Part shown: piece by piece, positions 2,193 to 46,225 of the stretch
How positions within the stretch are numbered: position 1 is the first letter of the stretch
Layout of the letters: each line of letters begins with the position of its first letter
IMG/VR virus record: IMGVR_UViG_3300035494_000066
Source: a virus
Taxonomy: Duplodnaviria; Heunggongvirae; Uroviricota; Caudoviricetes
Direction: 5' to 3' (one strand)
Length of the DNA: 64,000 bases
Made by a program: the position numbers and the translations under genes
Notes under the pieces: generated by a model
What the model saw: only the letters and a program-made list of their open reading frames with translations
Told to the model about the DNA's origin: nothing
Databases searched by the model: none

Positions 2193-2199
2193 TAGTGAA

Positions 2200-2279
2200 T
2201 GGTGCCCACAGCAGGGGTCGAACCTGCATGTATCCAATTAACCTTTCTACGATTTCGTAGACCGAGGGTATATGTGGGC
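2200..2279 (-). tRNA. tRNA-like element with canonical acceptor and T-arm but irregular D/anticodon region (possible pseudo-tRNA or insert-bearing tRNA)
   Basis: Acceptor gcccaca/tgtgggc, T-arm gcaggttcgacccctgc and CCA are canonical. The 43-nt core contains a perfect ctacg-aaat-cgtag hairpin and no canonical 5-bp/7-nt anticodon arm. Confidence 0.35.
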
Positions 2280-2286
2280 ATTTAAT

Positions 2287-2362
2287 TGGCGACTGTGACG
2301 GGAGTCGAACCCGCACCAGACTGCTAGACAGGCAGTTATCCTTCCCAGAGGATCTCACAGCC
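2287..2362 (-). tRNA. tRNA-Asp (anticodon GTC), copy 1 (unusual T37)
   Basis: Hand fold. Acceptor ggctgtg/cacagtc, D atcc/ggat, anticodon arm actgc-cTGTCta-gcagt, T-arm gcgggttcgactcccgt, CCA. Confidence 0.55.
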
Positions 2363-3056: not shown

Positions 3057-3148
3057 ATTTAATAGTAACAGGGCAAGTCTACCTCTTGCTGTTAAGCGAA
3101 CTGTTGCACACACGTCAACTCCCCCGAAGGTTTTACAACGCTGTGCTC

Positions 3149-3224
3149 AGCTTATACCTGTTATAAATTGGCGGACCTGACGAGTTTCGATCTCGCTACC
3201 TCGACAGTGACAGTGTCGCGCTCT
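3149..3224 (-). tRNA. tRNA-Asp (anticodon GTC), copy 2 (T-loop has A54)
   Basis: Hand fold. Acceptor ggacctg/caggtcc, D gctc/gagc, anticodon arm cgaca-cTGTCac-tgtcg, T-arm gcgag-atcgaaa-ctcgt, CCA. Confidence 0.6.
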
Positions 3225-3332
3225 CCCGATTGAGCTACAGGTCCTTAAATTCTGACACCTATTCCGGCTTTTACGGCAACGTTTTTATTGCTGCTAGTGC
3301 CCAACAGCATGTTGCTTGATACTTCATGAATT

Positions 3333-3570: not shown

Positions 3571-3656
3571 TGGCTCCTCGGGTAGGCTTCGAACCTACAA
3601 TGCCTATCGGCGCCTGATTAACAGTCAGGTGACTTTACCAGTTTGTCTACCGAGGA
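3571..3656 (-). tRNA. type-II (long variable arm) tRNA with anticodon GTT; discriminator G73
   Basis: 86 nt. 3-bp D stem with 11-nt D loop, perfect anticodon arm cctga-cTGTTaa-tcagg, 14-nt variable arm, T-arm gtaggttcgaagcctac, CCA. This architecture is normally Ser/Leu/Tyr, not Asn. Confidence 0.5.
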
Positions 3657-3667
3657 ATTTTAAAAAT

Positions 3668-3752
3668 TGGTAGCGAGAGCAGGATTCGAACCTACGAAGC
3701 CATTGGCAATGGGTTATGAGCCCATTCACTTTGTCCGCTTGTATATCTCGCA
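3668..3752 (-). tRNA. type-II (long variable arm) tRNA with anticodon CAT; 1:72 mismatch; discriminator A73
   Basis: 85 nt. 3-bp D stem with 11-nt D loop, perfect anticodon arm atggg-cTCATaa-cccat, 13-nt variable arm, T-arm gtaggttcgaatcctgc, CCA. Confidence 0.5.
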
Positions 3753-3891: not shown

Positions 3892-3965
3892 TGGTGGAGA
3901 CATGGAGAATCGAACTCCAATCACTACAGTGCAAGTGTAGTATAATACCGTTATACTATATCCCC
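3892..3965 (-). tRNA. tRNA-Ala (anticodon TGC) with G3:U70, copy 2
   Basis: Body is nearly identical to the copy at 2872-2945 (shared ~50-nt core). Acceptor and T-stem differ (ggggata/tgtctcc, tggagttcgattctcca). CCA encoded. Confidence 0.65.
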
Positions 3966-3967
3966 AT

Positions 3968-4043
3968 TGGCTCCCTGGACTGGATTCGAACCAGTAGCGA
4001 CTTGGTTAAAGCCAAGTGCCCCTACCTATAGGGCCCCCAGGGA
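3968..4043 (-). tRNA. tRNA-Lys-like with 6-nt anticodon loop (cTTTaa)
   Basis: All four arms are otherwise canonical: acceptor tccctgg/ccaggga, D gccc/gggc, T-arm actggttcgaatccagt, CCA. The perfect anticodon stem cttgg/ccaag encloses only 6 nt, ctttaa. Confidence 0.45.
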
Positions 4044-4044
4044 A

Positions 4045-4120
4045 TGGTGCTCGGTGATGGAATCAAACCATCCTGAAACTTGCTTGTAAGGCAAGCGCCT
4101 CCTCAATCGGCCAACCGAGC
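4045..4120 (-). tRNA. tRNA-Val (anticodon TAC)
   Basis: Hand fold. Acceptor gctcggt/accgagc, anticodon arm cttgc-cTTACaa-gcaag, T-arm gatggtttgattccatc, CCA. Confidence 0.65.
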
Positions 4121-4200: not shown

Positions 4201-4566
4201 ATTACAACTTTCCTAAAATGTTAAAGAGCGTTTGTCTAATTACAGACATTAAAAAAGGGTGCCTTTGCACCCTTTTTATTAAATTCTTTTCTACTTTACG
4301 AGCAAGGGTGCAGTTTCGTAAAGTAATCCTTATAATCGCGAGCGAAGAAAATCTCAGCCACAATCGCAGGGCGAACATTAGCCATCGGCTTAACATTATT
4401 CTCTGCAATGTTGTTATGATTGATTACGTTGTTCATTTCTTGCTCTCTTTAAGTTATGTTGTACAGTATACTACGTTTTTTTCTACTGTCAAGTCTTTTT
4501 GTAAAACTTTTTAAATTTCTTTTTGTTTAACTTTGTAAATTGTATAGTTTTATTTATATCTGTTAA

Positions 4567-4596
4567 CTAAAAAACCAGAACTTTTTTGGTTTTTAA
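4567..4596. terminator. A-run/hairpin/T-run bidirectional terminator-like element (repeat copy 1)
   Basis: Sequence aaaaaacc(a)gaacttttttggttttt. A near-identical copy lies at 6705-6728. Confidence 0.45.
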
Positions 4597-4733
4597 CTAC
4601 TCGGATAACAAAAAGAACACTAATTATGTTGCGTTTGTAACATAGTTAACTAAACTGTTGTTGTGTATACGCTTAGTCTTAAATTGTAATCTATGCATTA
4701 ATTATACAGATTAGTTACACACTGTCAACATAA

Positions 4734-6197
4734 TTATTTCAAATTTTTAATCGGTATTAGTTCGGGATGTGCGCTGTAAAAATCGGTGTTGCGCTTCTGG
4801 TCAAACGACTCAGTGCTAGTTACAAATTTGTGGCTTAGATCATTTCGATTATTAAACTTGCGTAAGAAGTTAGTAACCCAATTTAGCTCAGTGTAGTTAC
4901 TACTCTGATACTTTTCGATTGCTAAATCCCTGAGCCATTGAGGAGCATTAGCTACACTAAACTCTGCAGGATCTGTAACAAAACCCCAAACTAAATTAGC
5001 GTTAAGTGTTTTCGATAGAGACACAACATTGTCTAGATACAATAAATTTTGTGTATTAACAGTAACAGAAAAACTCAACTTAGCATGTGCATTCTGCATG
5101 CAGAACTTAGAAAAATCGTTAAGATTTTCTGCAACTTCGTTCCATTTACCACCGCGTTGGATTTCAAATCGACGACCGACGTCATCGATGCTTGCTATGA
5201 TTTCTATAGATTTGAACCTCTGCAATAGTTGCATAATGTCTGGTTTATACACACTACCGTTTGTGTTGATGCTAATGCTCATGTTGTGTGCTTGCTTTAA
5301 ATCGATTAGCCTTGTTAACAACTTCTCTAAGTTAGGATTAATCAACGGTTCACCGCCTAGTAAGTGAACACTTTCGCAACTGTTGAAATCAATTTTAGAC
5401 AGAAAATCTTCCTCTAGAGGAATTTTCCCAAAGACTTCAAATGCTCTGAGATTGTTTTGTTCTTTAGCAACTCGTGTGCTTGCGTCAGGATTGCATATTC
5501 GACATTTAAAGTTACAAAATGAAGTAGCCGACACAGTTATGTCCCGGAGCTCAATGTTATCAAACCACCGAGTGTTGCAAGCGTGTAAAAACTTTTCAAT
5601 AAACTGTTGCCGTCTGCTAATTGCTCCTTGCTCTTCTTTTCTCCAGCATTCATTGCAGCCTGGGTGCTTAGTATTGCTGCTTATAGCAGCCCTAATCGAA
5701 GCGTACTGACTGTTATCCTCAATTGAGAAATTTCTATCTGTGATAGTAACGCTGTTAGAGTACTCACAGCACGGTTTTGCACTTTTATTGCTGCGAATGT
5801 TAATCATTCCGTACGGTGCAGGACAAAATGTTTCGGATAGTGCTGGGAAAGAGTCTAGCTGTATTGGTGCAGTTATAGTTCCTTCATAATTAACTACTTC
5901 AAAATCGATGTCTGAATAATCAACTATGTTGTTTCTGACGTATTCTATTTCAGCAGTTAAGTCTTGGGGGGTTTCGAGACGAACAAAACACAGTGAAATG
6001 TCGGCACGTAAAGCAGCAAATGCTAAATGGGCAATGTGCTGCCATGTCATCGGGTGCGATGTATATAGGACAATACGCTCGTCTGGTCTAAAATACGGTT
6101 TTGTGATAGCTTGAAAATAACGATACGCAGTTGAGTGTACATCACCTAATACTTCGCTCAAGTCTGCCTTACTAACTATATTAATTTCTGCGGTCAT
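4734..6197 (-). CDS. radical SAM enzyme, SPASM/twitch-type, with N-terminal Cys-rich domain (487 aa)
   Basis: CxxxCxxC motif (CNFKCRIC), GGEPL-like motif, NTNGS motif. N-terminal CxxCW...RRQQ motif is shared with the rSAM at 18300-19610. Confidence 0.75.
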   Translation of the reverse strand: MTAEINIVSKADLSEVLGDVHSTAYRYFQAITKPYFRPDERIVLYTSHPMTWQHIAHLAFAALRADISLCFVRLETPQDLTAEIEYVRNNIVDYSDIDFEVVNYEGTITAPIQLDSFPALSETFCPAPYGMINIRSNKSAKPCCEYSNSVTITDRNFSIEDNSQYASIRAAISSNTKHPGCNECWRKEEQGAISRRQQFIEKFLHACNTRWFDNIELRDITVSATSFCNFKCRICNPDASTRVAKEQNNLRAFEVFGKIPLEEDFLSKIDFNSCESVHLLGGEPLINPNLEKLLTRLIDLKQAHNMSISINTNGSVYKPDIMQLLQRFKSIEIIASIDDVGRRFEIQRGGKWNEVAENLNDFSKFCMQNAHAKLSFSVTVNTQNLLYLDNVVSLSKTLNANLVWGFVTDPAEFSVANAPQWLRDLAIEKYQSSNYTELNWVTNFLRKFNNRNDLSHKFVTSTESFDQKRNTDFYSAHPELIPIKNLK

Positions 6198-9963: not shown

Positions 9964-10040
9964 TGGTGCCAGTAGTGGGATTCGAACCCACACTTTACAG
10001 AATCTCGACCTGCTACCTCTGCCAATTGGGCTATACTGGC
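9964..10040 (-). tRNA. tRNA-like (type undetermined; possibly degenerate or Leu-GAG-like)
   Basis: Perfect acceptor gccagta/tactggc, T-arm gtgggttcgaatcccac and CCA. D and anticodon arms fold poorly by hand. Confidence 0.35.
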
Positions 10041-13356: not shown

Positions 13357-13385
13357 AGTATATTTATCTCTTACGTTCTTGTCAA
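13357..13385 (-). promoter_or_regulatory. sigma70-like promoter TTGACA-17-TATACT upstream of the Cys/Gln/Trp tRNA island
   Basis: Minus strand cagTTGACAagaacgtaagagataaaTATACTata. Confidence 0.5.
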
Positions 13386-13909
13386 CTGGTTATTTTTGGT
13401 TTGTCGACAATAAAATTTGCATATCGAGTTAAAAATCCTCTTAAACAGTCAAGCCTAGCCTGCGTTTTAGTCTGACTATCTGCTACTAGCACGTCGACAG
13501 GAACAGAAACTTGTCCTACTTGGAACAGCTCGTCTGCTAATTCTTTAGATTCTTTAAGACCTTTTCCAGACACTGACCGAATTGATTTAATTAATGTTAC
13601 TTTATCTAAGCCAGCAGCCCGGCGAGCATCGCAGCGCTTATTGTATTCGTCCCCGCGGGTACCCCCGTCGCAGAACGCTTCTGGGACCTTTAAGCGGATC
13701 GTATCGTCTGATCCTATACCTAGTCTGTATGTAGATGATAGTGCAGCCATTAGATACGTGTCGATAACTGTAATGTCGTACCGGTTTACTACTTCTTCGA
13801 TTTCTTGCAAGATTCTTAGAGTAGTATCCGCTGACTCGGTAAGTGCATCGAGCTCCGACTTAAGCCAGTGTATTAAGACGGTATTCTCAAATGATTTCAT
13901 ATAAGGCAC
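13382..13909 (-). CDS. protein with C-terminal ribosomal L7/L12 C-terminal-domain-like region (175 aa), paralogue 1
   Basis: DKVTLIKSIRSVSGKGLKESKELADELFQVGQVSVPV aligns with the bL12 CTD core (vIKavRgaTGLGLKEAKdLVE). Paralogous to 13927-14427. Confidence 0.55.
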   Translation of the reverse strand: MPYMKSFENTVLIHWLKSELDALTESADTTLRILQEIEEVVNRYDITVIDTYLMAALSSTYRLGIGSDDTIRLKVPEAFCDGGTRGDEYNKRCDARRAAGLDKVTLIKSIRSVSGKGLKESKELADELFQVGQVSVPVDVLVADSQTKTQARLDCLRGFLTRYANFIVDKPKITS

Positions 13910-13926
13910 TCTCCTTAATAATTATC

Positions 13927-14427
13927 TTAATGTACACTGACAATAAACTGTTTAAACTGTTGATTAAACTCTCGGATAGCAGCAAGGTATTCAGTTACAT
14001 CTTCTAGTGACATTGTGAGCTGTGTTGCAGGTATTGATATCGAAGTTGATTTGCGAATCATCAATTCGTCTACTGAATTTTTTGCATCTTTAAGCAAAAC
14101 TCTAGAAACTTGTCTGATAGCTTTTATCATGCGTACACGATCTATGCCTAGATCAGATAACTTGCTGTATAGACCCTGACGCACTGCTAGTTGCTGCAGC
14201 AGAACTTCGATGTCTGCTGGCAATGCTAAATCGATTTGCACAGCAGATCCTTTGCCGGTTGAAAATTGATCAGTTAATACTGCTGCTACATAGCCACTGA
14301 TAAAAGTAATGTCGTACTTGTTTAAGGTGCATTCGATGTCGTTAAGAAGATCATGTACGTTTACAGTTCCGCCAGAGATTCCGTTAACAAGCCAGTTGAT
14401 GGCAATTGTATTATTGAGCGGTTTCAT
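13927..14427 (-). CDS. protein with L7/L12 CTD-like region (166 aa), paralogue 2
   Basis: Shares NKYDITFISGYVAAVL and RVRMIKAIRQVSRVLLKDAKNSVDEL blocks with the upstream paralogue. Confidence 0.5.
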   Translation of the reverse strand: MKPLNNTIAINWLVNGISGGTVNVHDLLNDIECTLNKYDITFISGYVAAVLTDQFSTGKGSAVQIDLALPADIEVLLQQLAVRQGLYSKLSDLGIDRVRMIKAIRQVSRVLLKDAKNSVDELMIRKSTSISIPATQLTMSLEDVTEYLAAIREFNQQFKQFIVSVH

Positions 14428-15376: not shown

Positions 15377-16381
15377 TTATAGCTCTCGGTTGTTTATGTA
15401 TTTAGTAAAATCTCCATAAACAGTAATCACGTATCGCGGCTCGTTGCTATAGTTACACGCTGCATGTGCAAATTGATGAGTGTTCACTAGCATGGGATGC
15501 GTGAGGTTCGAAACACCACCGTGCATGAACTTCAATGGCGCTCCTGGGCTCGGAACCTTAACTGGAATATACATTTTTGGACTAACCGGAGCTTCACATC
15601 CGTCTATATGAATTTCAACAAATCCACCTGGCTCAAGTTTGTTGATATAAAGGCCGTACAGCTCAGTTATACCTAAGCTCAAAAGCCAATTGGTAACATA
15701 CGGTAGCTCGTCACGGTGTTCGTTGACACTATAAACATTAGACCAGTCGGTGTTACCTGGGCCTTTGTTGTGGTCGCGGAGAACTGACCATCCTTTGTGT
15801 CGGCTGTAATGTGTAGCACTGCTAGACTGCGAAAGTAACTCGAGCACTTCGGTTGCAGCAATATCTTGATTAAATTCTTCGTTAACAACATAGTACGGCG
15901 CAGTATCTGACCCTTTTTTATAGTAAAACGGACCGTACGGATGCTCGAAAAAACTGCGCACAGAAGTTGACTCAACTACCTCCGGAACAGAAGTTCCGCT
16001 GTCGCACATTACGTAGTACTCGTCAAACAAGTCAGTGCCGTACTTACCGTCTGGGAGTACAGTTTTGTAATGGGCTCGCATAACACCTAGATTGCTATGG
16101 ACCATTAACTTAAAATGTCCTGTTTTTTGATCAACATACGTTGCAGGACAGGTTATTACGCCGGTTTGAGATTCCTCAAACCACCCGGTGTAAAGGATCT
16201 CACTAATCGATTGCCCGTTAATTAGGATATCGTCGATTTTAATAAGATCACCTTCGGGTTTAACCAAAAGCATTTGCCAGCCATTGTGCATAAGAGCTTC
16301 GTGACGGCCAGTGATTACATTGCCTGATTGTAATAAAGAAAAAGCACTAGGTGTGCCTAGTACTTTTATTGTTGAACTCAT
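15377..16381 (-). CDS. hypothetical protein (334 aa); C-terminal HxD...H pattern (EIHID ... THQFAH) could indicate a second cupin/oxygenase fold
   Basis: Long ORF tightly packed between the oxygenase-like gene and folE. Only weak motif evidence. Confidence 0.45.
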   Translation of the reverse strand: MSSTIKVLGTPSAFSLLQSGNVITGRHEALMHNGWQMLLVKPEGDLIKIDDILINGQSISEILYTGWFEESQTGVITCPATYVDQKTGHFKLMVHSNLGVMRAHYKTVLPDGKYGTDLFDEYYVMCDSGTSVPEVVESTSVRSFFEHPYGPFYYKKGSDTAPYYVVNEEFNQDIAATEVLELLSQSSSATHYSRHKGWSVLRDHNKGPGNTDWSNVYSVNEHRDELPYVTNWLLSLGITELYGLYINKLEPGGFVEIHIDGCEAPVSPKMYIPVKVPSPGAPLKFMHGGVSNLTHPMLVNTHQFAHAACNYSNEPRYVITVYGDFTKYINNREL

Positions 16382-16382
16382 G

Positions 16383-17054
16383 TTAACCTCGCGCTAGTGA
16401 CATAAACTCTGCCCTGGTAGTAGGATCTTCTTTAAAAGCACCGCCTAGCTTGCTTGTTACAGTGCTAGACCCAGTATCTTCTACACCACGCGCTGCTACA
16501 CAATAGTGTTTTGCGTCAATGACTACTGCTACATCTTCTGTTTCGAGAATGTAGCACAAGGCGTGAAAGACTTGCTCAGTAAGCCGTTCCTGGATCTGCG
16601 GCCGTTTCGAGAAGTACTCGACTACCCTGTTAATTTTTGACAATCCTAGGACTTTTTCGTTAGGGATATAGCCAACAGTTGCAAAACCGTCAATGACAAC
16701 AAAGTGGTGTTCGCAGTTGCTCTTGACATTCACATTACGTTCTACAACCATTTCGTTGTAACCCATTTTGTTTTCGACTGTTGTACACTTAGGAAACGCA
16801 TCTGGATCTAAGCCCCAAAACACTTCGCCTACGTACATTTTTGCGACCCGCTTCGGCGTTTCGGCTAAGCTATCGTCACTTAGGTCTAGACCTAAGGTTT
16901 CCATGATGTCTTTAAACTTTGTTTCAATAATATCGATTTTTGCAGTGCGGGAAAGATCTGTTTCAATTGTAGGAGTCGATACGCCTACGCTTGCAAGATG
17001 TTCGTGAACCATACGACCTAATTCAGGGTCGCATTTTGTTTTGTTAAAACTCAA
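16383..17054 (-). CDS. folE: GTP cyclohydrolase I (FolE), TTG start
   Basis: Conserved FolE core NCEHHFVVIDG and overall FolE-like sequence, 223 aa. A TTGACA-17-TATAAT promoter lies at about 17130-17180. Confidence 0.8.
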   Translation of the reverse strand: MSFNKTKCDPELGRMVHEHLASVGVSTPTIETDLSRTAKIDIIETKFKDIMETLGLDLSDDSLAETPKRVAKMYVGEVFWGLDPDAFPKCTTVENKMGYNEMVVERNVNVKSNCEHHFVVIDGFATVGYIPNEKVLGLSKINRVVEYFSKRPQIQERLTEQVFHALCYILETEDVAVVIDAKHYCVAARGVEDTGSSTVTSKLGGAFKEDPTTRAEFMSLARG

Positions 17055-17966: not shown

Positions 17967-18370
17967 CGATAAAACGGTTTCGGAATATGTAACGTTAGTG
18001 TGCCGTTAAATCCTAAGTATGGCATCGGAGGTAGTTCACCGAATTCAGTATGGTACTTTCCGAATCGAAAAATATTCTCTGCCACATTAACATCGTCTAT
18101 GTATAACTCGTCGATTATAACAGCAGTTTCTTTCTCTACATAGTGCTTATTCTGCATGGATACTGTGATTGTAACGTCGTCTAACAACGGTATAGACGTG
18201 TTAACGTGTACATCATTGTACAAGTCGCAATCTAATAGAGTAATGCCGTTTACTGTCACAGTAACGCCAGGGAAGCCGGCGTCGACTATAGGACGTAACT
18301 TAGCTCTTACTTGAAGACGTAGGTCGCTGGTATCCGTGCCGGATAAAAAGTTCTGTATACACTGGGACAT
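17921..18370 (-). CDS. hypothetical protein (149 aa; true start may be internal)
   Basis: Overlaps the rSAM gene by about 70 nt. Confidence 0.4.
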   Translation of the reverse strand: MSQCIQNFLSGTDTSDLRLQVRAKLRPIVDAGFPGVTVTVNGITLLDCDLYNDVHVNTSIPLLDDVTITVSMQNKHYVEKETAVIIDELYIDDVNVAENIFRFGKYHTEFGELPPMPYLGFNGTLTLHIPKPFYRWRHDIKEYGWYITQ

Positions 18371-19610
18371 AATCTAATATTGAATTTTTCCTTACTGCTT
18401 CTATCTTAGTTATAAACGATATCAAGTCAGCAAACCTATAAGTGTCACTAGGCGCCGAGTTAAGATAGTTGATATAACTTGTCACATCATGATACAAACT
18501 TGATTCTACTACAGACGGCGCTCGGGCATTAGGATTAGAAGCACTCCTTGACACCTGTTCGGAGAATGTAGAGTCTCGCCAATTGGTAAGATCCTCGACA
18601 ATCGTTGCTCGAACACTGTCGGGCAAGACAGTTGGCCGCATGTACTCTGGAAATTCCAAGAAATTACAACTCTCTACGCTCATACTGTTTGCAAGTGCGT
18701 ACTCGTATATAGGGATTAGCTTGTGTACAGTAAAGATGGTAGGTGTTGTTCGGAGTTGGATTAACCATTTAACTCCGTCGTTAAGACTTGCCCAGCGATC
18801 TAGCTCAGCTTTTGCATCAGCAATGTTAGATCCGTATCGCACATAGTCATTGACTTCGTCTAGTGACTCAATACTTAGTCCGACATGCACTTGCCTAAAC
18901 TCGTGTAACAAGTGAACGATACTATCGTCCCAGCTGGATAAGTTTGTAGTAAACCCGATTATAACTTTGTTTGCTACACCAGCTGCTACAATTTCATTAA
19001 TTAAACGCTTAAATGCTGGGATAATTAACGTTTCACCGCCGATGAAATGCAAGTATGCCGGCTGATTCAGCTTAACTAGATCATTAACAAATTTGTCAAC
19101 TAGGTCTGGATCATCAGTCCAGTTTTTGTGAGAGTGCGAATCGATTATTTTTGCTTTTATCAAATCGTGCGCTAGTCGGCTACTCGATTCTGGTTTGCAA
19201 AATATACATGCATTATTGCAGTAATTTCCTAGATCTATTTGCCAGTCGACCGGAAATATCTGAGCAGTAGAATCCGTTAGCCTGTCTTTCCATTCTGAGC
19301 TTAGTAGAGATTTTTCAAACGCAGTTATGTCGATACCGGTCTTAATTAGCTGCTGTGCTCTACCACTGGTTTTTCCATACTTGTCCATGTTGTAACACGG
19401 AGTACAATTATGCACAACTTCGCCGTTGACATGTTGTTGCCTAACAGCTTGCATCACATTATTAAAGTATTCCAAAGGAGACATATCGGATATGTGGGGC
19501 ATTGTAGATGGGCGATACGCCCATCTACAATAGTTGTAGTGCCCCGACGCAGTTATCCGGAAATGAAACCAAGGGCTCGAGCAAAATGTTGTTTTGAGGT
19601 CAGACATCAA
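18300..19610 (-). CDS. radical SAM enzyme, SPASM/twitch-type, with N-terminal Cys-rich domain (436 aa)
   Basis: CNNACIFC (CxxxCxxC), [14 protein letters not shown] and ESLDEV blocks parallel the 4734-6197 protein. N-terminal CTPCY...GRAQQ motif. Confidence 0.75.
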
Positions 19611-25603: not shown

Positions 25604-26068
25604 TCAATTGTTTTTACTAAGTGTATGTATGACATCGAGCTGCTGCTTTAACTCTAACAATTCAGCTGCGGTTCTGGGAGATATACCGTCTGAGCGTAAT
25701 AGTATTTCGTATGCTGCTGTACTCTTGCTTTTATTCCGTACTTGCTGCACAACTTGCCGGACTATCGAGTGGATGTTCCATATTGCACTAGATGTGTTTT
25801 TTGCGGCATCTGCAGACTCATACAACTCCTCTGATGTTATCGAGAGTATGTTATACAACGCATCAGACATTATAGATATAACACTACAATCGCCTAGCTG
25901 AAGATTGTTTCTTCCTTCAGCAAATGTAGTACTAGTTAACTGATCTGTAGTTGTCATTGATTGTGCGGCTTCGTTTGCTGCGATGCACGCCTTTAAGCTT
26001 TTATTTTCTTCCCTAAGCAATGCGATCTCGGCTAATAGCTTCTTTAGGTCCGAATTATCAGTTAACAT
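25604..26068 (-). CDS. hypothetical coiled-coil protein (154 aa)
   Basis: Minus-strand ORF. Confidence 0.4.
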   Translation of the reverse strand: MLTDNSDLKKLLAEIALLREENKSLKACIAANEAAQSMTTTDQLTSTTFAEGRNNLQLGDCSVISIMSDALYNILSITSEELYESADAAKNTSSAIWNIHSIVRQVVQQVRNKSKSTAAYEILLRSDGISPRTAAELLELKQQLDVIHTLSKNN

Positions 26069-27744: not shown

Positions 27745-28032
27745 TCAGTATCCCTGTGAATCCTTGATTAGTTCTAGTCGTTCTACTGCTTCGGTGTACA
27801 TGGTTGTCCCTTCTTTGTAAGTCGACAGAATTTCGGCAATGTGTTTGTATTCACGCGCTAATCGCGAAGCGGTATTGCACCAGTCGGCGAGTTCGTCGTA
27901 TGTAGGACAGACCATATACTTATTGCAGCTAGCAGTCTCAACGCCATTTGTTACATGAGCGTATCGAGCCTCTTGTCCGCAATTGCATTTCATCATGAAA
28001 ATTTCCTCTCGTGTTCCATTCGTCGCAAGCAC
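27745..28032 (-). CDS. small Cys-rich zinc-ribbon protein (95 aa)
   Basis: CNCG...CNKYMVCP...WCN cysteine pattern. Confidence 0.4.
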   Translation of the reverse strand: MLATNGTREEIFMMKCNCGQEARYAHVTNGVETASCNKYMVCPTYDELADWCNTASRLAREYKHIAEILSTYKEGTTMYTEAVERLELIKDSQGY

Positions 28033-28751
28033 TGCTCAATCGTCTCGTTAGGCAACATCTCATATGATGTGCCAGTTACTCCGCCCTTCCAAGATCCGGA
28101 ACGCTCGCCGACTTCATTACTGAAACTAATATCAATGCATTTATGTTTCAACTTTAGGAATGGCAGCCATTTGCGATGCCACACTCTTTGCTCAACAGTG
28201 CAAGTTGCATCAACCTCTTGCACTTTTCCACTCTTAAGAGTGTAAGTGTATTTGTGTGTCTCAGTCAATGCCCCGTCTTGACGAAAATCCCACGAGTCTG
28301 GACATCCTTTGGCACCTACTTTGACCCATCCGCCGTCTTTTGACAGTATTTCGTGAGTTTCGAACACCATACTAACAAACGGCAGGTCCCAGCACTTAAC
28401 ACGCGGTTTTGACATCTGGCCAATCGACTCATCAAATTCTCCGCCCCAGTAGAACATTGCAGTATTATTAGAGACACAAAACCCGTATTGAGGTAAATTG
28501 CAACCCTCTGCTAACTTTGTTTTAAATGGCAGCTTGACATGGAACACGCCCCAGATAAAACAAAAGCCGATTGCATAACGTTGATCAAAATAGCCTCCCC
28601 TCATGAGGCGAAGCTCTAGCCCGAACCTAGGAGCAAAATACCCCCATGAGAAATCAATAGAGTCTCTATTGATTCTCCACATGCCTAAGAGATGGTGTAA
28701 AATTTTTTGCCACCAATTGAACTCATACTTTAGGACTTCTCTCATACTCAA
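27993..28751 (-). CDS. hypothetical protein (252 aa)
   Basis: Minus-strand ORF. Confidence 0.45.
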   Translation of the reverse strand: MSMREVLKYEFNWWQKILHHLLGMWRINRDSIDFSWGYFAPRFGLELRLMRGGYFDQRYAIGFCFIWGVFHVKLPFKTKLAEGCNLPQYGFCVSNNTAMFYWGGEFDESIGQMSKPRVKCWDLPFVSMVFETHEILSKDGGWVKVGAKGCPDSWDFRQDGALTETHKYTYTLKSGKVQEVDATCTVEQRVWHRKWLPFLKLKHKCIDISFSNEVGERSGSWKGGVTGTSYEMLPNETIEQCLRRMEHERKFS

Positions 28752-41245: not shown

Positions 41246-42259
41246 TTAGCCACCAGTCTTCAGAAGATACTTGTTGCTAATAGCCTTCCAGTGGTGGCCG
41301 CCATTTACTTCCTTGAACACTAGACCTTCTTGCTGCTTCTTGGGATTCACTGTACTAAAGTTCTCAGCGCGAGCTAGTACTTGCTCAATTGTTGCGTCTG
41401 TGTCAAACATGTACTCGGCGTCGACAACCGGAACGTGCTTTAACCCTAGTGTTTTGCACAGTGCAACACGTTCTGCGGCAGGCAGATACTTTCCTACACT
41501 GTAGTCGTATACAGTGTACACATAAAAATCTTGTCCTTTGATTCCGTAGTAGTTGCCCTGAATTCCTTCCCCAACAATCTCACCTTGGAGTGCTAGCGTA
41601 GTCAAGTTGTTGTCTCGCAACCGCTGTTCGATGTTATATGCGCGGGCAACTTTCCAAAGAGAGTTCTTCTCGCTCTCTTTGAGATTTAAGTTTCTGCCGC
41701 AAACGATAAAATCACCATCGGCGTCGATTGCAACTGTCATTGAGCTACCTTCGAGTTTTTCGGTAACTTCGTATGTTAGCTGTTTTAGGTCGCCCCACTG
41801 ACTAGCTAGATTCTGGATTCGTTCTTCATCGGTTTTCGGAATGTAGCCAGGGAACACACCTTTAACTTCGCCCGATAGGCACGCTGGGATAGGCGGCTCG
41901 TATTTGAGGATCCCGAGCATCTGAGTAACGTCATCGCCAACTGCAATGTCCATTTTACTGCGCACCAGTGACATAGGAAGGAGCAGGCCTTGACTCAATT
42001 GGCCGCGGAGTCGCATAGTTCGAAGGCGATAACCTTGCACGCCGGAAAATTCAGTCGGGCCAGTGCCGCGGTCAAGGAATGGCGCAATTTCATGCGGGAT
42101 AAAACTGTCAACTTCACAATAAATTGCACGATCGCCAGCAGTGTACTCGCCTTTGCGAACAACAACAGTCCAACCGTCGATAACAGCACACTCAATCTGG
42201 TCGGCTCCGGGGATGCTGCGAACAGAGTCAATTGTACGAATAGATGCTAGCTTTCTCAT
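41246..42259 (-). CDS. ATP-dependent RNA ligase-like nucleotidyltransferase (337 aa)
   Basis: Motif I-like EKLEGSS (KxxG). Ligase-size protein next to a tRNA-rich region and a Pnk-like kinase elsewhere in the window. Confidence 0.5.
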   Translation of the reverse strand: MRKLASIRTIDSVRSIPGADQIECAVIDGWTVVVRKGEYTAGDRAIYCEVDSFIPHEIAPFLDRGTGPTEFSGVQGYRLRTMRLRGQLSQGLLLPMSLVRSKMDIAVGDDVTQMLGILKYEPPIPACLSGEVKGVFPGYIPKTDEERIQNLASQWGDLKQLTYEVTEKLEGSSMTVAIDADGDFIVCGRNLNLKESEKNSLWKVARAYNIEQRLRDNNLTTLALQGEIVGEGIQGNYYGIKGQDFYVYTVYDYSVGKYLPAAERVALCKTLGLKHVPVVDAEYMFDTDATIEQVLARAENFSTVNPKKQQEGLVFKEVNGGHHWKAISNKYLLKTGG

Positions 42260-45358: not shown

Positions 45359-46225
45359 TTAGCGAAAGTTTACTTCGTACTGGAGTTCTATTTCAGGTTT
45401 TGTCTTATTACATAATTTGTTTACACTACACACAATAGAACATGTTTTTTCTGGCGAATCCGATGTCCATGACGGTGCAACATCATCGATTGTTTTATGT
45501 ACTCCGAATATTCCGAAAAAGCAGCACGGGAATAAATCTCCTTTTGCATCGATGTATGCTTTCTTGCCGCGCAAACTAAGGCAATCGATGTGTCCCGGTT
45601 CAGAAGCAGGAGGTACCCAGCCAGTTGGATATTCTAATCCCGGAACCAATGCACGGGTACTTACTTTTGCACGGAATTGAGCAAACCCCAGTGATCTCGC
45701 TAACTCGATGCAGTCTTCTACTTGGTGTTCGTTGTGCTTATATATTAGCATATCCCAGCGGGCATTCCCCCCGGCGTTGATGAACGTCTGTACATTATCA
45801 ATAAGCTTATTCCAGTTGACATTCCGACGGTATATATGATTAGTGTCTGCTAATCCGTCGATGCTAAATGTAACATAATCTGTTTCGTACGAAAGAATGT
45901 CAGCAAGCTCTGCCCACCAACTCGGGCTTCGAATAGCACCGTTGGTGTTTATCGAAAGAGAGCACAGCGGGTTAATCTGTTTAGTTTGTTTTAATATATC
46001 CAGTGTGTGGCGGCCAGCAGCAGGATCGCCGAAGTTCCCGCAGAGTAGCAATCGCTTAAGTTGCTTAATCTGCTCGATGCTAAAATGCGTTAGCACTTGT
46101 TCGAATGACAAATGATTGTTTGACCTTTTATCAAACAATCCAGCGTCTTCTCTAGGACATTGCGGGCAAGCTGCCTGACATACATCAGTACTTTCTAAGT
46201 GTAATACGTTAATTTCTCTGATCAT
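45359..46225 (-). CDS. radical SAM enzyme, SPASM/twitch-type (288 aa)
   Basis: CQAACPQC (CxxxCxxC) at the N-terminus. LCGNFGDP and SINTNGA blocks. C-terminal Cys cluster CLSLRG...PCCFFG. Confidence 0.7.
   Translation of the reverse strand: MIREINVLHLESTDVCQAACPQCPREDAGLFDKRSNNHLSFEQVLTHFSIEQIKQLKRLLLCGNFGDPAAGRHTLDILKQTKQINPLCSLSINTNGAIRSPSWWAELADILSYETDYVTFSIDGLADTNHIYRRNVNWNKLIDNVQTFINAGGNARWDMLIYKHNEHQVEDCIELARSLGFAQFRAKVSTRALVPGLEYPTGWVPPASEPGHIDCLSLRGKKAYIDAKGDLFPCCFFGIFGVHKTIDDVAPSWTSDSPEKTCSIVCSVNKLCNKTKPEIELQYEVNFR

What the first reader, a model, noticed from the sequence alone, without database searches (positions are those of the whole stretch)
3968..4043. Otherwise canonical tRNA with a 6-nt anticodon loop (cuuuaa)
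Acceptor, D arm, T arm and CCA are all regular. The perfect 5-bp anticodon stem cttgg/ccaag encloses only six nucleotides. This looks like a Lys-UUU loop (cuuuuaa) lacking one U. It could be a sequencing homopolymer error or a pseudogene. It could also be a deliberately altered decoding tRNA: read in the alternative register it would present UUA, which pairs with the UAA stop.

Two genes in this window contain in-frame stop codons (TGA and TAG), which makes any non-standard decoder worth checking.
Basis: seen in the sequence. Interest (0 to 1): 0.5.

Follow-up and report, generated by a model that had tools for sequence, protein, structure and literature searches.

The report
Phage asparagine-type tRNA missing its wobble base
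A giant phage's tRNA cluster contains an otherwise well-formed asparagine-type tRNA gene whose anticodon loop has six bases instead of seven because the first anticodon base is missing, so it is most likely a disabled or non-decoding copy rather than a stop-codon reader.

Summary
Window 3968-4043 (- strand) is a bona fide tRNA (Rfam 46.9 bits) with perfect stems, an encoded CCA and a 6-nt anticodon loop, CUUUAA. The JGI contig and a Logan contig carry the same sequence.

The acceptor stem UCCCUGG/CCAGGGA plus discriminator G73 is Asn-type. All 12 real tRNAs in IMG/VR with this acceptor are tRNA-Asn(GUU), as is the single GTDB hit. In alignment the gap falls exactly at wobble G34.

Nothing in the window needs an ochre suppressor. 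TAA is the commonest stop, and every same-frame ORF pair has an ATG just after the stop. Genuine UUA suppressors found in metagenomes have 7-nt CUUUAAC loops.

No orthologue could be found, so conservation is untested. An unrelated IMG/VR phage contig carries a second, otherwise perfect Asn-type tRNA with the same CUUUAA loop. Degenerate copies with this loop also exist.

Most likely (0.55) it is a co-transcribed but decoding-dead Asn tRNA paralogue; a normal-loop Asn(GUU) tRNA lies 312 nt away. A decoy for wobble-directed tRNases, or two-base decoding, cannot be excluded. Interest is modest.

The parts
3968..4043 (-). Whole tRNA gene, 76 nt: Asn-type body, 6-nt anticodon loop, genomically encoded CCA
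   Evidence: ARAGORN; Rfam 46.9 bits; sequence
4006..4011 (-). Anticodon loop CUUUAA (6 nt). Relative to tRNA-Asn CUGUUAA, the wobble G34 is absent
   Evidence: alignment A2 with eight tRNA-Asn(GUU)
4012..4016 (-). 5' strand of the anticodon stem, CUUGG. A26 at 4017 can add a sixth pair with U44 at 4000
4001..4005 (-). 3' strand of the anticodon stem, CCAAG
4037..4043 (-). 5' strand of the acceptor stem, UCCCUGG (Asn-type, U1)
3968..3978 (-). 3' strand of the acceptor stem CCAGGGA, discriminator G73 and encoded CCA
4045..4120 (-). Upstream neighbour in the array, tRNA-Val(UAC), 1 nt away
3892..3965 (-). Downstream neighbour in the array, tRNA-Ala(UGC), 2 nt away
3571..3656 (-). The phage's other Asn-type tRNA: normal 7-nt loop CUGUUAA, GUU anticodon, but an unusual long variable arm (86 nt). 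It makes the target redundant for Asn decoding
4465..4728 (-). Sigma-70-like promoter matches upstream of the array, at 4728-4701 (12/12) and 4492-4465 (11/12). Consensus matches only; their number equals the shuffle expectation

Best explanation
This is a genuine member of the phage's polycistronic tRNA array. It descends from a tRNA-Asn(GUU) gene and has lost the wobble nucleotide G34, which leaves a 6-nt loop CUUUAA on a 5-6 bp stem.

Inferred: because the acceptor stem, T arm, tertiary-pair nucleotides and CCA are intact, it should be transcribed with its neighbours and excised by RNase P and 3' trimming like them.

Inferred from established tRNA identity rules: it lacks G34, which is the base that distinguishes Asn from Lys for AsnRS. 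It also lacks the 7-nt loop geometry (U-turn plus three stacked anticodon bases) that the ribosomal A site reads. It is therefore most likely not a working decoder.

On this reading it is a recently disabled, redundant paralogue, a tRNA pseudogene in the functional sense, kept in an array where many isotypes are duplicated. A normal-loop Asn(GUU) tRNA lies 312 nt downstream.
For: - It is a real tRNA with a 6-nt loop.
- Asn ancestry: the acceptor plus G73 plus CCA pattern recovers 12 tRNAs (6 distinct sequences) in IMG/VR, all tRNA-Asn(GUU). The 22-nt T-arm/acceptor string has one GTDB hit, a Planctomycetota tRNA-Asn.
- The gap falls at G34 in alignment A2.
- In fetched loci, U1-A72/G73 occurs in 5 of 7 Asn tRNAs and 0 of 8 Lys tRNAs.
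- Redundancy: a second Asn(GUU) lies at 3571-3656. Seven isotypes are duplicated in the array and there are four CAU tRNAs.
- The array holds other aberrant tRNA-like genes. One is the element at about 2200-2280, with acceptor, T arm and CCA but a 4-nt hairpin loop. Another is a Tyr tRNA below the Rfam cut-off.
- No recoding need is seen in the window.
- The same loop lesion occurs in clearly degenerate tRNA-like sequences elsewhere: L075 (Asn-type) and L066, L069 and L005 (Lys-type).
Against: - Apart from the loop, nothing is degraded. All 21 stem pairs are Watson-Crick, and G18G19, the T loop, C13-G22-G46, A15-U48 and CCA are present. The loss would have to be recent.
- An unrelated phage contig (L175) carries a second Asn-type tRNA with the identical CUUUAA loop and an otherwise perfect cloverleaf. 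This could mean the form is maintained.
- Compact phage genomes tend to lose useless DNA.
- No orthologues were found, so neither decay nor conservation could be measured.
Confidence: 0.55

Rival explanations
1. It is a functional non-decoding tRNA mimic. A genome-encoded 'wobble-less' tRNA-Asn would bind enzymes that act on position 34 of GUN or UUU-family tRNAs without being a substrate, titrating them during infection. Candidate targets are wobble-excising or wobble-cleaving anticodon nucleases of the RloC, PrrC or colicin E5 type, or tRNA-guanine transglycosylase.
For: - The sequence is what wobble excision of tRNA-Asn followed by religation would give. RloC is documented to excise the wobble nucleotide (PMC2610378).
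- Phage tRNAs are proposed to escape anticodon nucleases through loop changes (PMC10264068).
- The body is perfectly preserved, and a second intact example exists in an unrelated phage (L175).
- The window is rich in counter-defence and RNA-repair genes: an Acb3 homologue, an RNA ligase and a macro domain protein.
- A Thg1-like gene lies 8.5 kb away.
Against: - This is pure inference. No decoy tRNA of this kind is described in the searchable literature.
- The host and its defence repertoire are unknown.
- Two occurrences among millions of viral contigs fit random lesions.
- No conservation data exist.
Confidence: 0.15
2. It is a working non-standard decoder. A two-base anticodon (U35 U36) would read AA and either shift the frame by -1 (doublet decoding) or read all AAN codons.
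For: - ARAGORN's reading is a 2-nt anticodon 'tt'.
- Doublet decoding by a normal tRNA has structural support (PMC12202706).
- tRNAs with non-standard loop sizes exist in phages, though none is shown to frameshift (PMC5009743).
Against: - Without G34, charging by AsnRS is doubtful (tRNA identity rules).
- Two A-U pairs are the weakest possible codon contact.
- Indiscriminate AAN reading would mix Asn and Lys.
- No natural 6-nt-loop decoder was found in the literature.
- No gene in the window was seen to need a frameshift, although -1 overlaps were not searched systematically.
Confidence: 0.08
3. It is an ochre (UAA/UAG) suppressor, reading the loop as C32 U33 U34 U35 A36 A37 with position 38 missing.
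For: The loop contains UUA after a U33-like U. It differs from real suppressor loops (CUUUAAC) by one nucleotide.
Against: - TAA is the most used stop, ending 40 of 80 ORFs of 100 codons or more.
- No same-frame ORF pair needs read-through.
- The body is Asn-type, and AsnRS needs G34, U35 and U36.
- All 15 UUA suppressors ARAGORN called in the loci held were assigned an ordinary 3-nt anticodon; those inspected by eye have the 7-nt loop CUUUAAC.
UGA cannot be read by UUA.
Confidence: 0.03
4. It is a sequencing or assembly artefact, and the true gene has a 7-nt loop.
For: - A contig of the same phage from SRR634690 differs from the JGI contig by an A5/A4 homopolymer indel in the Thg1-like gene. 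Indel differences between assemblies of this phage therefore occur.
- The loop contains a T run.
Against: - The identical loop is in the window, in the JGI contig and in a Logan contig reported for two runs. These are two SNP-distinct versions.
- If the parent is Asn, the missing base is a G flanked by T's, which is not a homopolymer error.
- If a T were missing, the result would be a UUU anticodon on an Asn-type G73 body, which is itself anomalous.
- An independent IMG/VR contig shows the same loop in another Asn-type tRNA.
Confidence: 0.07

Closest known systems
Bacterial and phage tRNA-Asn(GUU)
   Same: The acceptor stem UCCCUGG/CCAGGGA is identical. U1-A72, G73 and the CCA end match, as do the loop flanks C32 U33 ... 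U35 U36 A37 A38. It sits in a phage tRNA array.
   Different: G34 is absent, so the loop has 6 nt and there is no GUU anticodon. It has G8/U14 and a 9-nt D loop instead of U8/A14 and 7-8 nt.
tRNA pseudogenes and 'tRNA-???' calls in phage tRNA arrays and at integration sites
   Same: There is a single lesion in the anticodon loop. The same CUUUAA loop occurs in degenerate Lys- and Asn-type tRNA-like sequences (L005, L066, L069, L075).
   Different: Those copies carry further defects, such as broken acceptor or D stems and no CCA, or they are 3' halves at att-like junctions. The target is otherwise flawless.
Product of wobble-nucleotide excision by the anticodon nuclease RloC (PMC2610378)
   Same: A tRNA lacking exactly nucleotide 34. 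If religated, the loop would be the one seen here.
   Different: Here the state is encoded in DNA, not produced by cleavage. No RloC, host or repair reaction is shown.
Loop-size frameshift suppressor tRNAs and phage tRNAs with expanded anticodon loops (8-9 nt; reviewed in PMC5009743)
   Same: A non-standard anticodon loop size in an otherwise normal tRNA, with examples in phage tRNA sets.
   Different: Those loops are expanded and linked to +1 events. This one is contracted, and no natural contracted-loop decoder was found in the literature searched.
Ochre suppressor tRNAs (anticodon UUA)
   Same: They share the string CUUUAA in the loop.
   Different: Real examples have 7 nt (CUUUAAC) and non-Asn bodies. 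The window shows no need for suppression.

Membership tests
tRNA (Rfam RF00005) | Cloverleaf scoring above the family gathering cut-off | tested here: met
   46.9 bits against a cut-off of 29
tRNA (Rfam RF00005) | 7-bp acceptor, 4-bp D stem, 5-bp anticodon stem and 5-bp T stem; T loop UUCGAAU; G18G19; G53-C61 | tested here: met
   Read directly from the sequence. All pairs are Watson-Crick.
Canonical elongator tRNA | 7-nt anticodon loop: 32, U33, three anticodon bases, purine 37, 38 | tested here: not met
   The loop is CUUUAA, 6 nt
Canonical elongator tRNA | U8-A14 tertiary pair | tested here: not met
   G8 and U14 are present. Two other tRNAs of the array, Asp 2287-2362 and Tyr 2421-2503, have A8/U14.
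tRNA-Asn | Asn-type acceptor (U1-A72, C2-G71, C3-G70) and discriminator G73 | tested here: met
   All 12 tRNAs in IMG/VR with this acceptor plus GCCA are Asn(GUU), as is the one GTDB hit. In unselected loci, 5 of 7 Asn and 0 of 8 Lys tRNAs have U1-A72/G73.
tRNA-Asn | Anticodon G34 U35 U36 | tested here: not met
   The G34 column is a gap in alignment A2
tRNA-Asn | Aminoacylation by AsnRS | not testable with these tools
   Needs an in vitro charging assay or an acid-urea Northern blot
tRNA-Lys(UUU) | Anticodon UUU in a 7-nt loop, discriminator A73, Lys-type acceptor | tested here: not met
   G73 and U1-A72 are present, and only 3 U's. The phage's own Lys has A1-U72/A73.
Ochre suppressor tRNA | 7-nt loop with anticodon UUA | tested here: not met
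   The loop has 6 nt. Genuine examples have CUUUAAC.
Ochre suppressor tRNA | Genes in the genome that require UAA read-through | tested here: not met
   None in the 64-kb window. Every downstream same-frame ORF has an ATG 0-13 codons after the stop, and TAA is the commonest stop. The rest of the ~302-kb genome was not examined.
tRNA pseudogene | A lesion incompatible with decoding | tested here: met
   The wobble base is missing. That this prevents decoding is inferred, not measured.
tRNA pseudogene | Relaxed constraint: further defects, or loss in relatives | tested here: inconclusive
   There are no further stem defects. No orthologues were found despite protein-anchored and pattern searches.
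Loop-size frameshift suppressor tRNA | Altered loop size with a demonstrated frame change | not testable with these tools
   The loop size is altered (6 nt), but known members have 8-9 nt (PMC5009743). Needs a reporter assay.

The most novel reading that the evidence does not exclude
Wobble-less tRNA-Asn is a maintained, functional class of phage RNA. It would be a DNA-encoded mimic of a wobble-excised tRNA, made and processed like a tRNA. It would then act either as an uncleavable decoy for position-34-directed host tRNases or transglycosylase, or as a two-base AA reader. Its independent presence in two unrelated phage tRNA arrays, each with an otherwise perfect cloverleaf, would then reflect selection rather than coincidence.
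Probability: 0.2. Interest if true: 0.75.

Novelty: new variant of a known kind. Interest (0 to 1): 0.35.

Why it matters
If it is only a disabled paralogue, its value is practical. It shows that 'tRNA-???' calls in phage arrays can be assigned to an isotype from the acceptor stem. It also shows that such a call should not be read as evidence for recoding.

If the wobble-less form is maintained, it would be the first natural tRNA with a contracted anticodon loop and a function. It would add a new tactic, a product-mimic decoy, to the phage-host conflict over tRNA anticodon loops. That conflict currently features replacement tRNAs, loop point mutations and RNA repair.

Tried and rejected
- Close relatives by DNA. 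Megablast and blastn against INPHARED gave nothing for the target. Target-specific patterns gave only chance hits in IMG/VR and nothing in the metagenome collection.

- Relatives by neighbouring proteins. The radical SAM gene 700 nt away has one 99% hit and then at most 33%. ORF 15377-16381 has none in IMG/VR. The Thg1-like gene has thousands of homologues at 52-68% identity. The 17 IMG/VR loci have no syntenic tRNA array, except L137 and L140, which lack an orthologue.

- L140. Its 'tRNA-??? (ttta)' looked like a related odd-loop tRNA. It is a normal Lys(UUU) with a bulged U in the stem.

- BLAST of the target against E. coli genomes. It hit prophage tRNA-Arg only through the shared T arm, so it is not informative for isotype.

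- Within-window paralogue search. There is no close paralogue; the best matches are 70-74% identical.

- The general pattern GGCTTTAACC...T-loop in metagenomes. Most hits are variable arms of Ser tRNAs or 7-nt-loop UUA suppressors.

- The L175 lineage. I tried to test conservation there through a neighbouring HODM-like protein. The relatives have a different gene context and no tRNAs.

- Additional samples. The phage is also in SRR11791834, ERR700148 and SRR634690, but those contigs stop short of the tRNA.

- Not done. I did not search systematically for -1 overlapping ORFs, and I had no read-level check. All collection scans are now exhausted, so other single-base loop deletions could not be counted as a control.

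Full report
**What is there.** The window is the tRNA-rich accessory region of a large T4-like phage. ARAGORN finds 29 tRNA genes, all on the - strand and all with an encoded CCA. Rfam confirms 28 of them. The protein next to the array occurs on a 302,446-bp JGI contig (3300035491, Ga0376444_000002) and on Logan contigs. Recognisable proteins include both topoisomerase II subunits, DNA and RNA ligases, NAMPT, PRPP synthetase, GTP cyclohydrolase I, three radical SAM enzymes, ClpP and an Acb3 homologue. The nearest cultured phages are only about 43% identical in the topoisomerase subunit. This is therefore a poorly sampled lineage.

**The observation.** The gene at 3968-4043 (- strand) is called 'tRNA-??? 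(tt)' by ARAGORN. It scores 46.9 bits against Rfam tRNA, whose cut-off is 29, and it outscores two other tRNAs of the array. The RNA reads UCCCUGG GG GCCC UAUAGGUAG GGGC A CUUGG CUUUAA CCAAG UCGCU ACUGG UUCGAAU CCAGU CCAGGGA G CCA.
- All 21 stem pairs are Watson-Crick.
- G18G19, the UUCGAAU T loop, G53-C61, C13-G22 with G46, and A15-U48 are present.
- The Rfam alignment puts a one-base deletion in the anticodon loop.
- The MFE structure is the cloverleaf with a 6-nt loop, and the stem is extendable by A26-U44.
An N8/U14 arrangement also occurs in the array's Asp (2287-2362) and Tyr (2421-2503) tRNAs, so it looks like a lineage style rather than decay.

**Is the sequence right?** The JGI contig (L003) and a Logan contig of SRR11791769 (L004, reported for two runs) carry exactly the same gene. 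L004 is 100% identical to the window over 4,241 nt. L003 differs by one SNP at window 7931, so at least two sequence versions agree on the loop.

The phage is also present in SRR11791834, ERR700148 and SRR634690, but those contigs do not reach the tRNA. There is one caveat. The SRR634690 contig differs from the JGI contig by an A5/A4 indel that truncates the Thg1-like gene, so homopolymer differences between assemblies of this phage do occur. Reads could not be examined.

- The pattern TCCCTGG-N58-68-CCAGGGAGCCA (acceptor, G73, CCA) matched 23 loci in IMG/VR. Twelve of these are real tRNAs (6 distinct sequences), and every one is tRNA-Asn(GUU) with loop CUGUUAA.
- The 22-nt string covering the T arm, the 3' acceptor strand and G73 occurs once among 185,579 GTDB species genomes, in a Planctomycetota tRNA-Asn with the same acceptor stem.
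- In tRNAs from unselected fetched loci, U1-A72/G73 is seen in 5 of 7 Asn tRNAs and 0 of 8 Lys tRNAs.
- The phage's own Asn tRNA has U1-A72/G73. Its own Lys tRNA has A1-U72/A73.
- In an alignment with eight tRNA-Asn(GUU), the single gap of the target falls in the G34 column (alignment A2).

The gene is therefore an Asn-type tRNA without its wobble base. By the established identity rules, G34 is the base that separates Asn from Lys for the class IIb synthetases. A missing G between U33 and U35 is also not a homopolymer-length error.

**Is a stop-codon reader needed?** No evidence for this was found in the window.
- Among ORFs of at least 100 codons, TAA ends 40, TGA 27 and TAG 13.
- In every pair of same-frame ORFs separated by one stop, the downstream ORF has an ATG 0-13 codons after the stop. 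The pairs read as adjacent genes.
- The only TGA pair (25604-25606) behaves the same way. No TAG pair was found at my thresholds.
- Genuine UUA suppressor tRNAs turned up in the metagenome scan. Those inspected have 7-nt loops, CUUUAAC, on non-Asn bodies.

**Is it conserved?** This could not be answered for the lineage. Pattern searches specific to the target, and searches anchored on three neighbouring proteins, found the same phage again or only distant relatives without a syntenic array.

A search for Asn-type 3' ends combined with a CTTTAA loop gave a different kind of evidence. IMG/VR contig IMGVR_UViG_3300024566_000189 (L175 60-134) carries UCCUCGA UA GCUC AGUCGGUA GAGC A AAGCA CUUUAA UGCUU GGGUC CGUGG UUCAAGU CCACG UCGGGGA G CCA.
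- It is an otherwise perfect Asn-type tRNA with the same 6-nt loop, sitting in a tRNA array.
- That phage shares no detectable protein similarity with the window.
- Its best BLAST hits are annotated tRNA-Asn genes of phiKZ-like and other phages that are one base longer.
- Its gap also falls at G34.

Against this, the same loop occurs in clearly degenerate tRNA-like sequences. L075 is Asn-type with further defects. L066, L069, L005 and probably L102 are Lys-type copies or att-like fragments. With thousands of Asn tRNAs likely present in these collections, one or two clean examples are compatible with random lesions.

**Most likely mechanism.**
- Shown: a real, structurally intact Asn-type tRNA gene lacking G34, placed 1 nt and 2 nt from its Val and Ala neighbours in a dense array. 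Sigma-70-like promoter matches lie upstream, but their number in the scanned region equals the shuffle expectation. A second, normal-loop Asn(GUU) tRNA lies 312 nt downstream.
- Inferred: the RNA is transcribed and processed like its neighbours, because RNase P and 3' trimming read the acceptor and T arm. It is poorly charged or not charged, and it does not decode normally, because the AsnRS determinant G34 and the 7-nt loop geometry are missing.

I therefore rate a decoding-dead, recently disabled paralogue as most likely (0.55). Three things support this.
- Seven isotypes are duplicated in the array, and there are four CAU tRNAs.
- The array contains at least one other tRNA-like gene that cannot decode, at about 2200-2280. 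It has an acceptor, T arm and CCA but a 4-nt hairpin loop.
- It also contains a Tyr tRNA that falls below the Rfam cut-off.

**Rivals.**
- Decoy (0.15). The sequence equals a wobble-excised, religated tRNA-Asn, and wobble excision is what the anticodon nuclease RloC does (PMC2610378). Phage tRNAs are thought to evade anticodon nucleases through loop changes (PMC10264068). The region encodes an RNA ligase and counter-defence genes. A decoy for position-34-directed enzymes is conceivable but wholly inferred.
- Two-base decoding or -1 frameshifting (0.08). It has no natural precedent for contracted loops in the literature searched.
- Ochre suppression (0.03) and an assembly artefact (0.07) are unlikely for the reasons given above.

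**Novelty and verdict.** Phage tRNAs with non-standard loop sizes are known but rare, and the described cases are expanded loops (PMC5009743). I found no description of a natural tRNA with a 6-nt loop lacking the wobble base. I class the finding as a new variant of a known kind, a phage tRNA paralogue with an aberrant anticodon loop. Interest is modest (0.35). It is held up mainly by the second intact example in an unrelated phage and by the exact correspondence to a wobble-excised tRNA.

Noticed in passing
window 2194-2286 (- strand): An unannotated tRNA-like RNA sits in a 93-nt gap of the array. It has an 8-bp acceptor UGCCCACA/UGUGGGCA, a T arm GCAGG-UUCGACC-CCUGC, A73 and CCA. The middle is a 6-bp hairpin UCUACG/CGUAGA with a 4-nt loop, and there is no D arm. 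MFE is -28.6 kcal/mol, z = -3.3. ARAGORN and the Rfam tRNA model both miss it.
   Followed up: partly
L175 60-134 (IMGVR_UViG_3300024566_000189): A second, unrelated phage contig carries an otherwise perfect Asn-type tRNA with the same 6-nt loop CUUUAA (stem AAGCA/UGCUU). It has an encoded CCA and lies 6 nt after another tRNA. Its best BLAST hits are annotated tRNA-Asn genes one base longer.
   Followed up: partly
window 3571-3656 and 3668-3752 (- strand): The tRNAs called Asn(GUU) (86 nt) and Met(CAU) (85 nt) carry long variable-arm hairpins, which these isotypes normally lack. Long-arm Asn tRNAs also occur in other viral arrays (L117, L174, L176, L177).
   Followed up: no
window 9964-10040, 2421-2503 and 2287-2362 (- strand): Other unusual tRNAs. 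Leu(GAG) is only 77 nt, without a long variable arm, and has C at position 33. Tyr 2421-2503 fails the Rfam tRNA cut-off and hits tRNA-Sec at 31 bits. Asp 2287-2362 and that Tyr have A8/U14.
   Followed up: no
window 3057-3168 and 3245-3332 (- strand): Two further gaps in the array, of 112 and 88 nt, have no tRNA call. Each has terminal pairing in its MFE fold, but the z-scores are weak (about -1.6). They may be small stable RNAs or spacers.
   Followed up: partly
L003 12525-13205, just beyond the window start; L144 8101-8110: A Thg1-like (tRNA-His guanylyltransferase family) gene lies 8.5 kb from the target. In the SRR634690 contig an A5-to-A4 run difference truncates it to 226 aa. The phage tRNA-His nevertheless has G-1 encoded in the genome, at window 93.
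   Followed up: partly
L011, L014, L018, L022, L063, L107, L117 (metagenome contigs): Apparently intact ochre-suppressor tRNAs (anticodon UUA, loop CUUUAAC) are easy to find in metagenome contigs. One lies in a 42-tRNA array (L117). One locus also has a CUA tRNA (L011), and one has two UUA tRNAs in tandem (L022).
   Followed up: no
window 27993-28751, 41246-42259, 16383-17054, 4734-6197, 18300-19610, 45359-46225: Accessory genes near the array: an Acb3 (CBASS inhibitor) homologue (E = 1.8e-60), an RNA ligase with a PHA02142 OB domain, GTP cyclohydrolase I and three radical SAM proteins. The combination hints at counter-defence, RNA repair and possibly 7-deazaguanine chemistry.
   Followed up: no
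window 13382-13909 and 13927-14427 (- strand): Two adjacent ORFs (175 and 166 aa) each show a weak, sub-threshold match to the C-terminal domain of ribosomal protein L7/L12.
   Followed up: no
window 25604-25606: This is the only same-frame ORF pair separated by TGA (175 and 112 codons). The downstream ORF has an ATG four codons after the stop, so it looks like two genes.
   Followed up: partly
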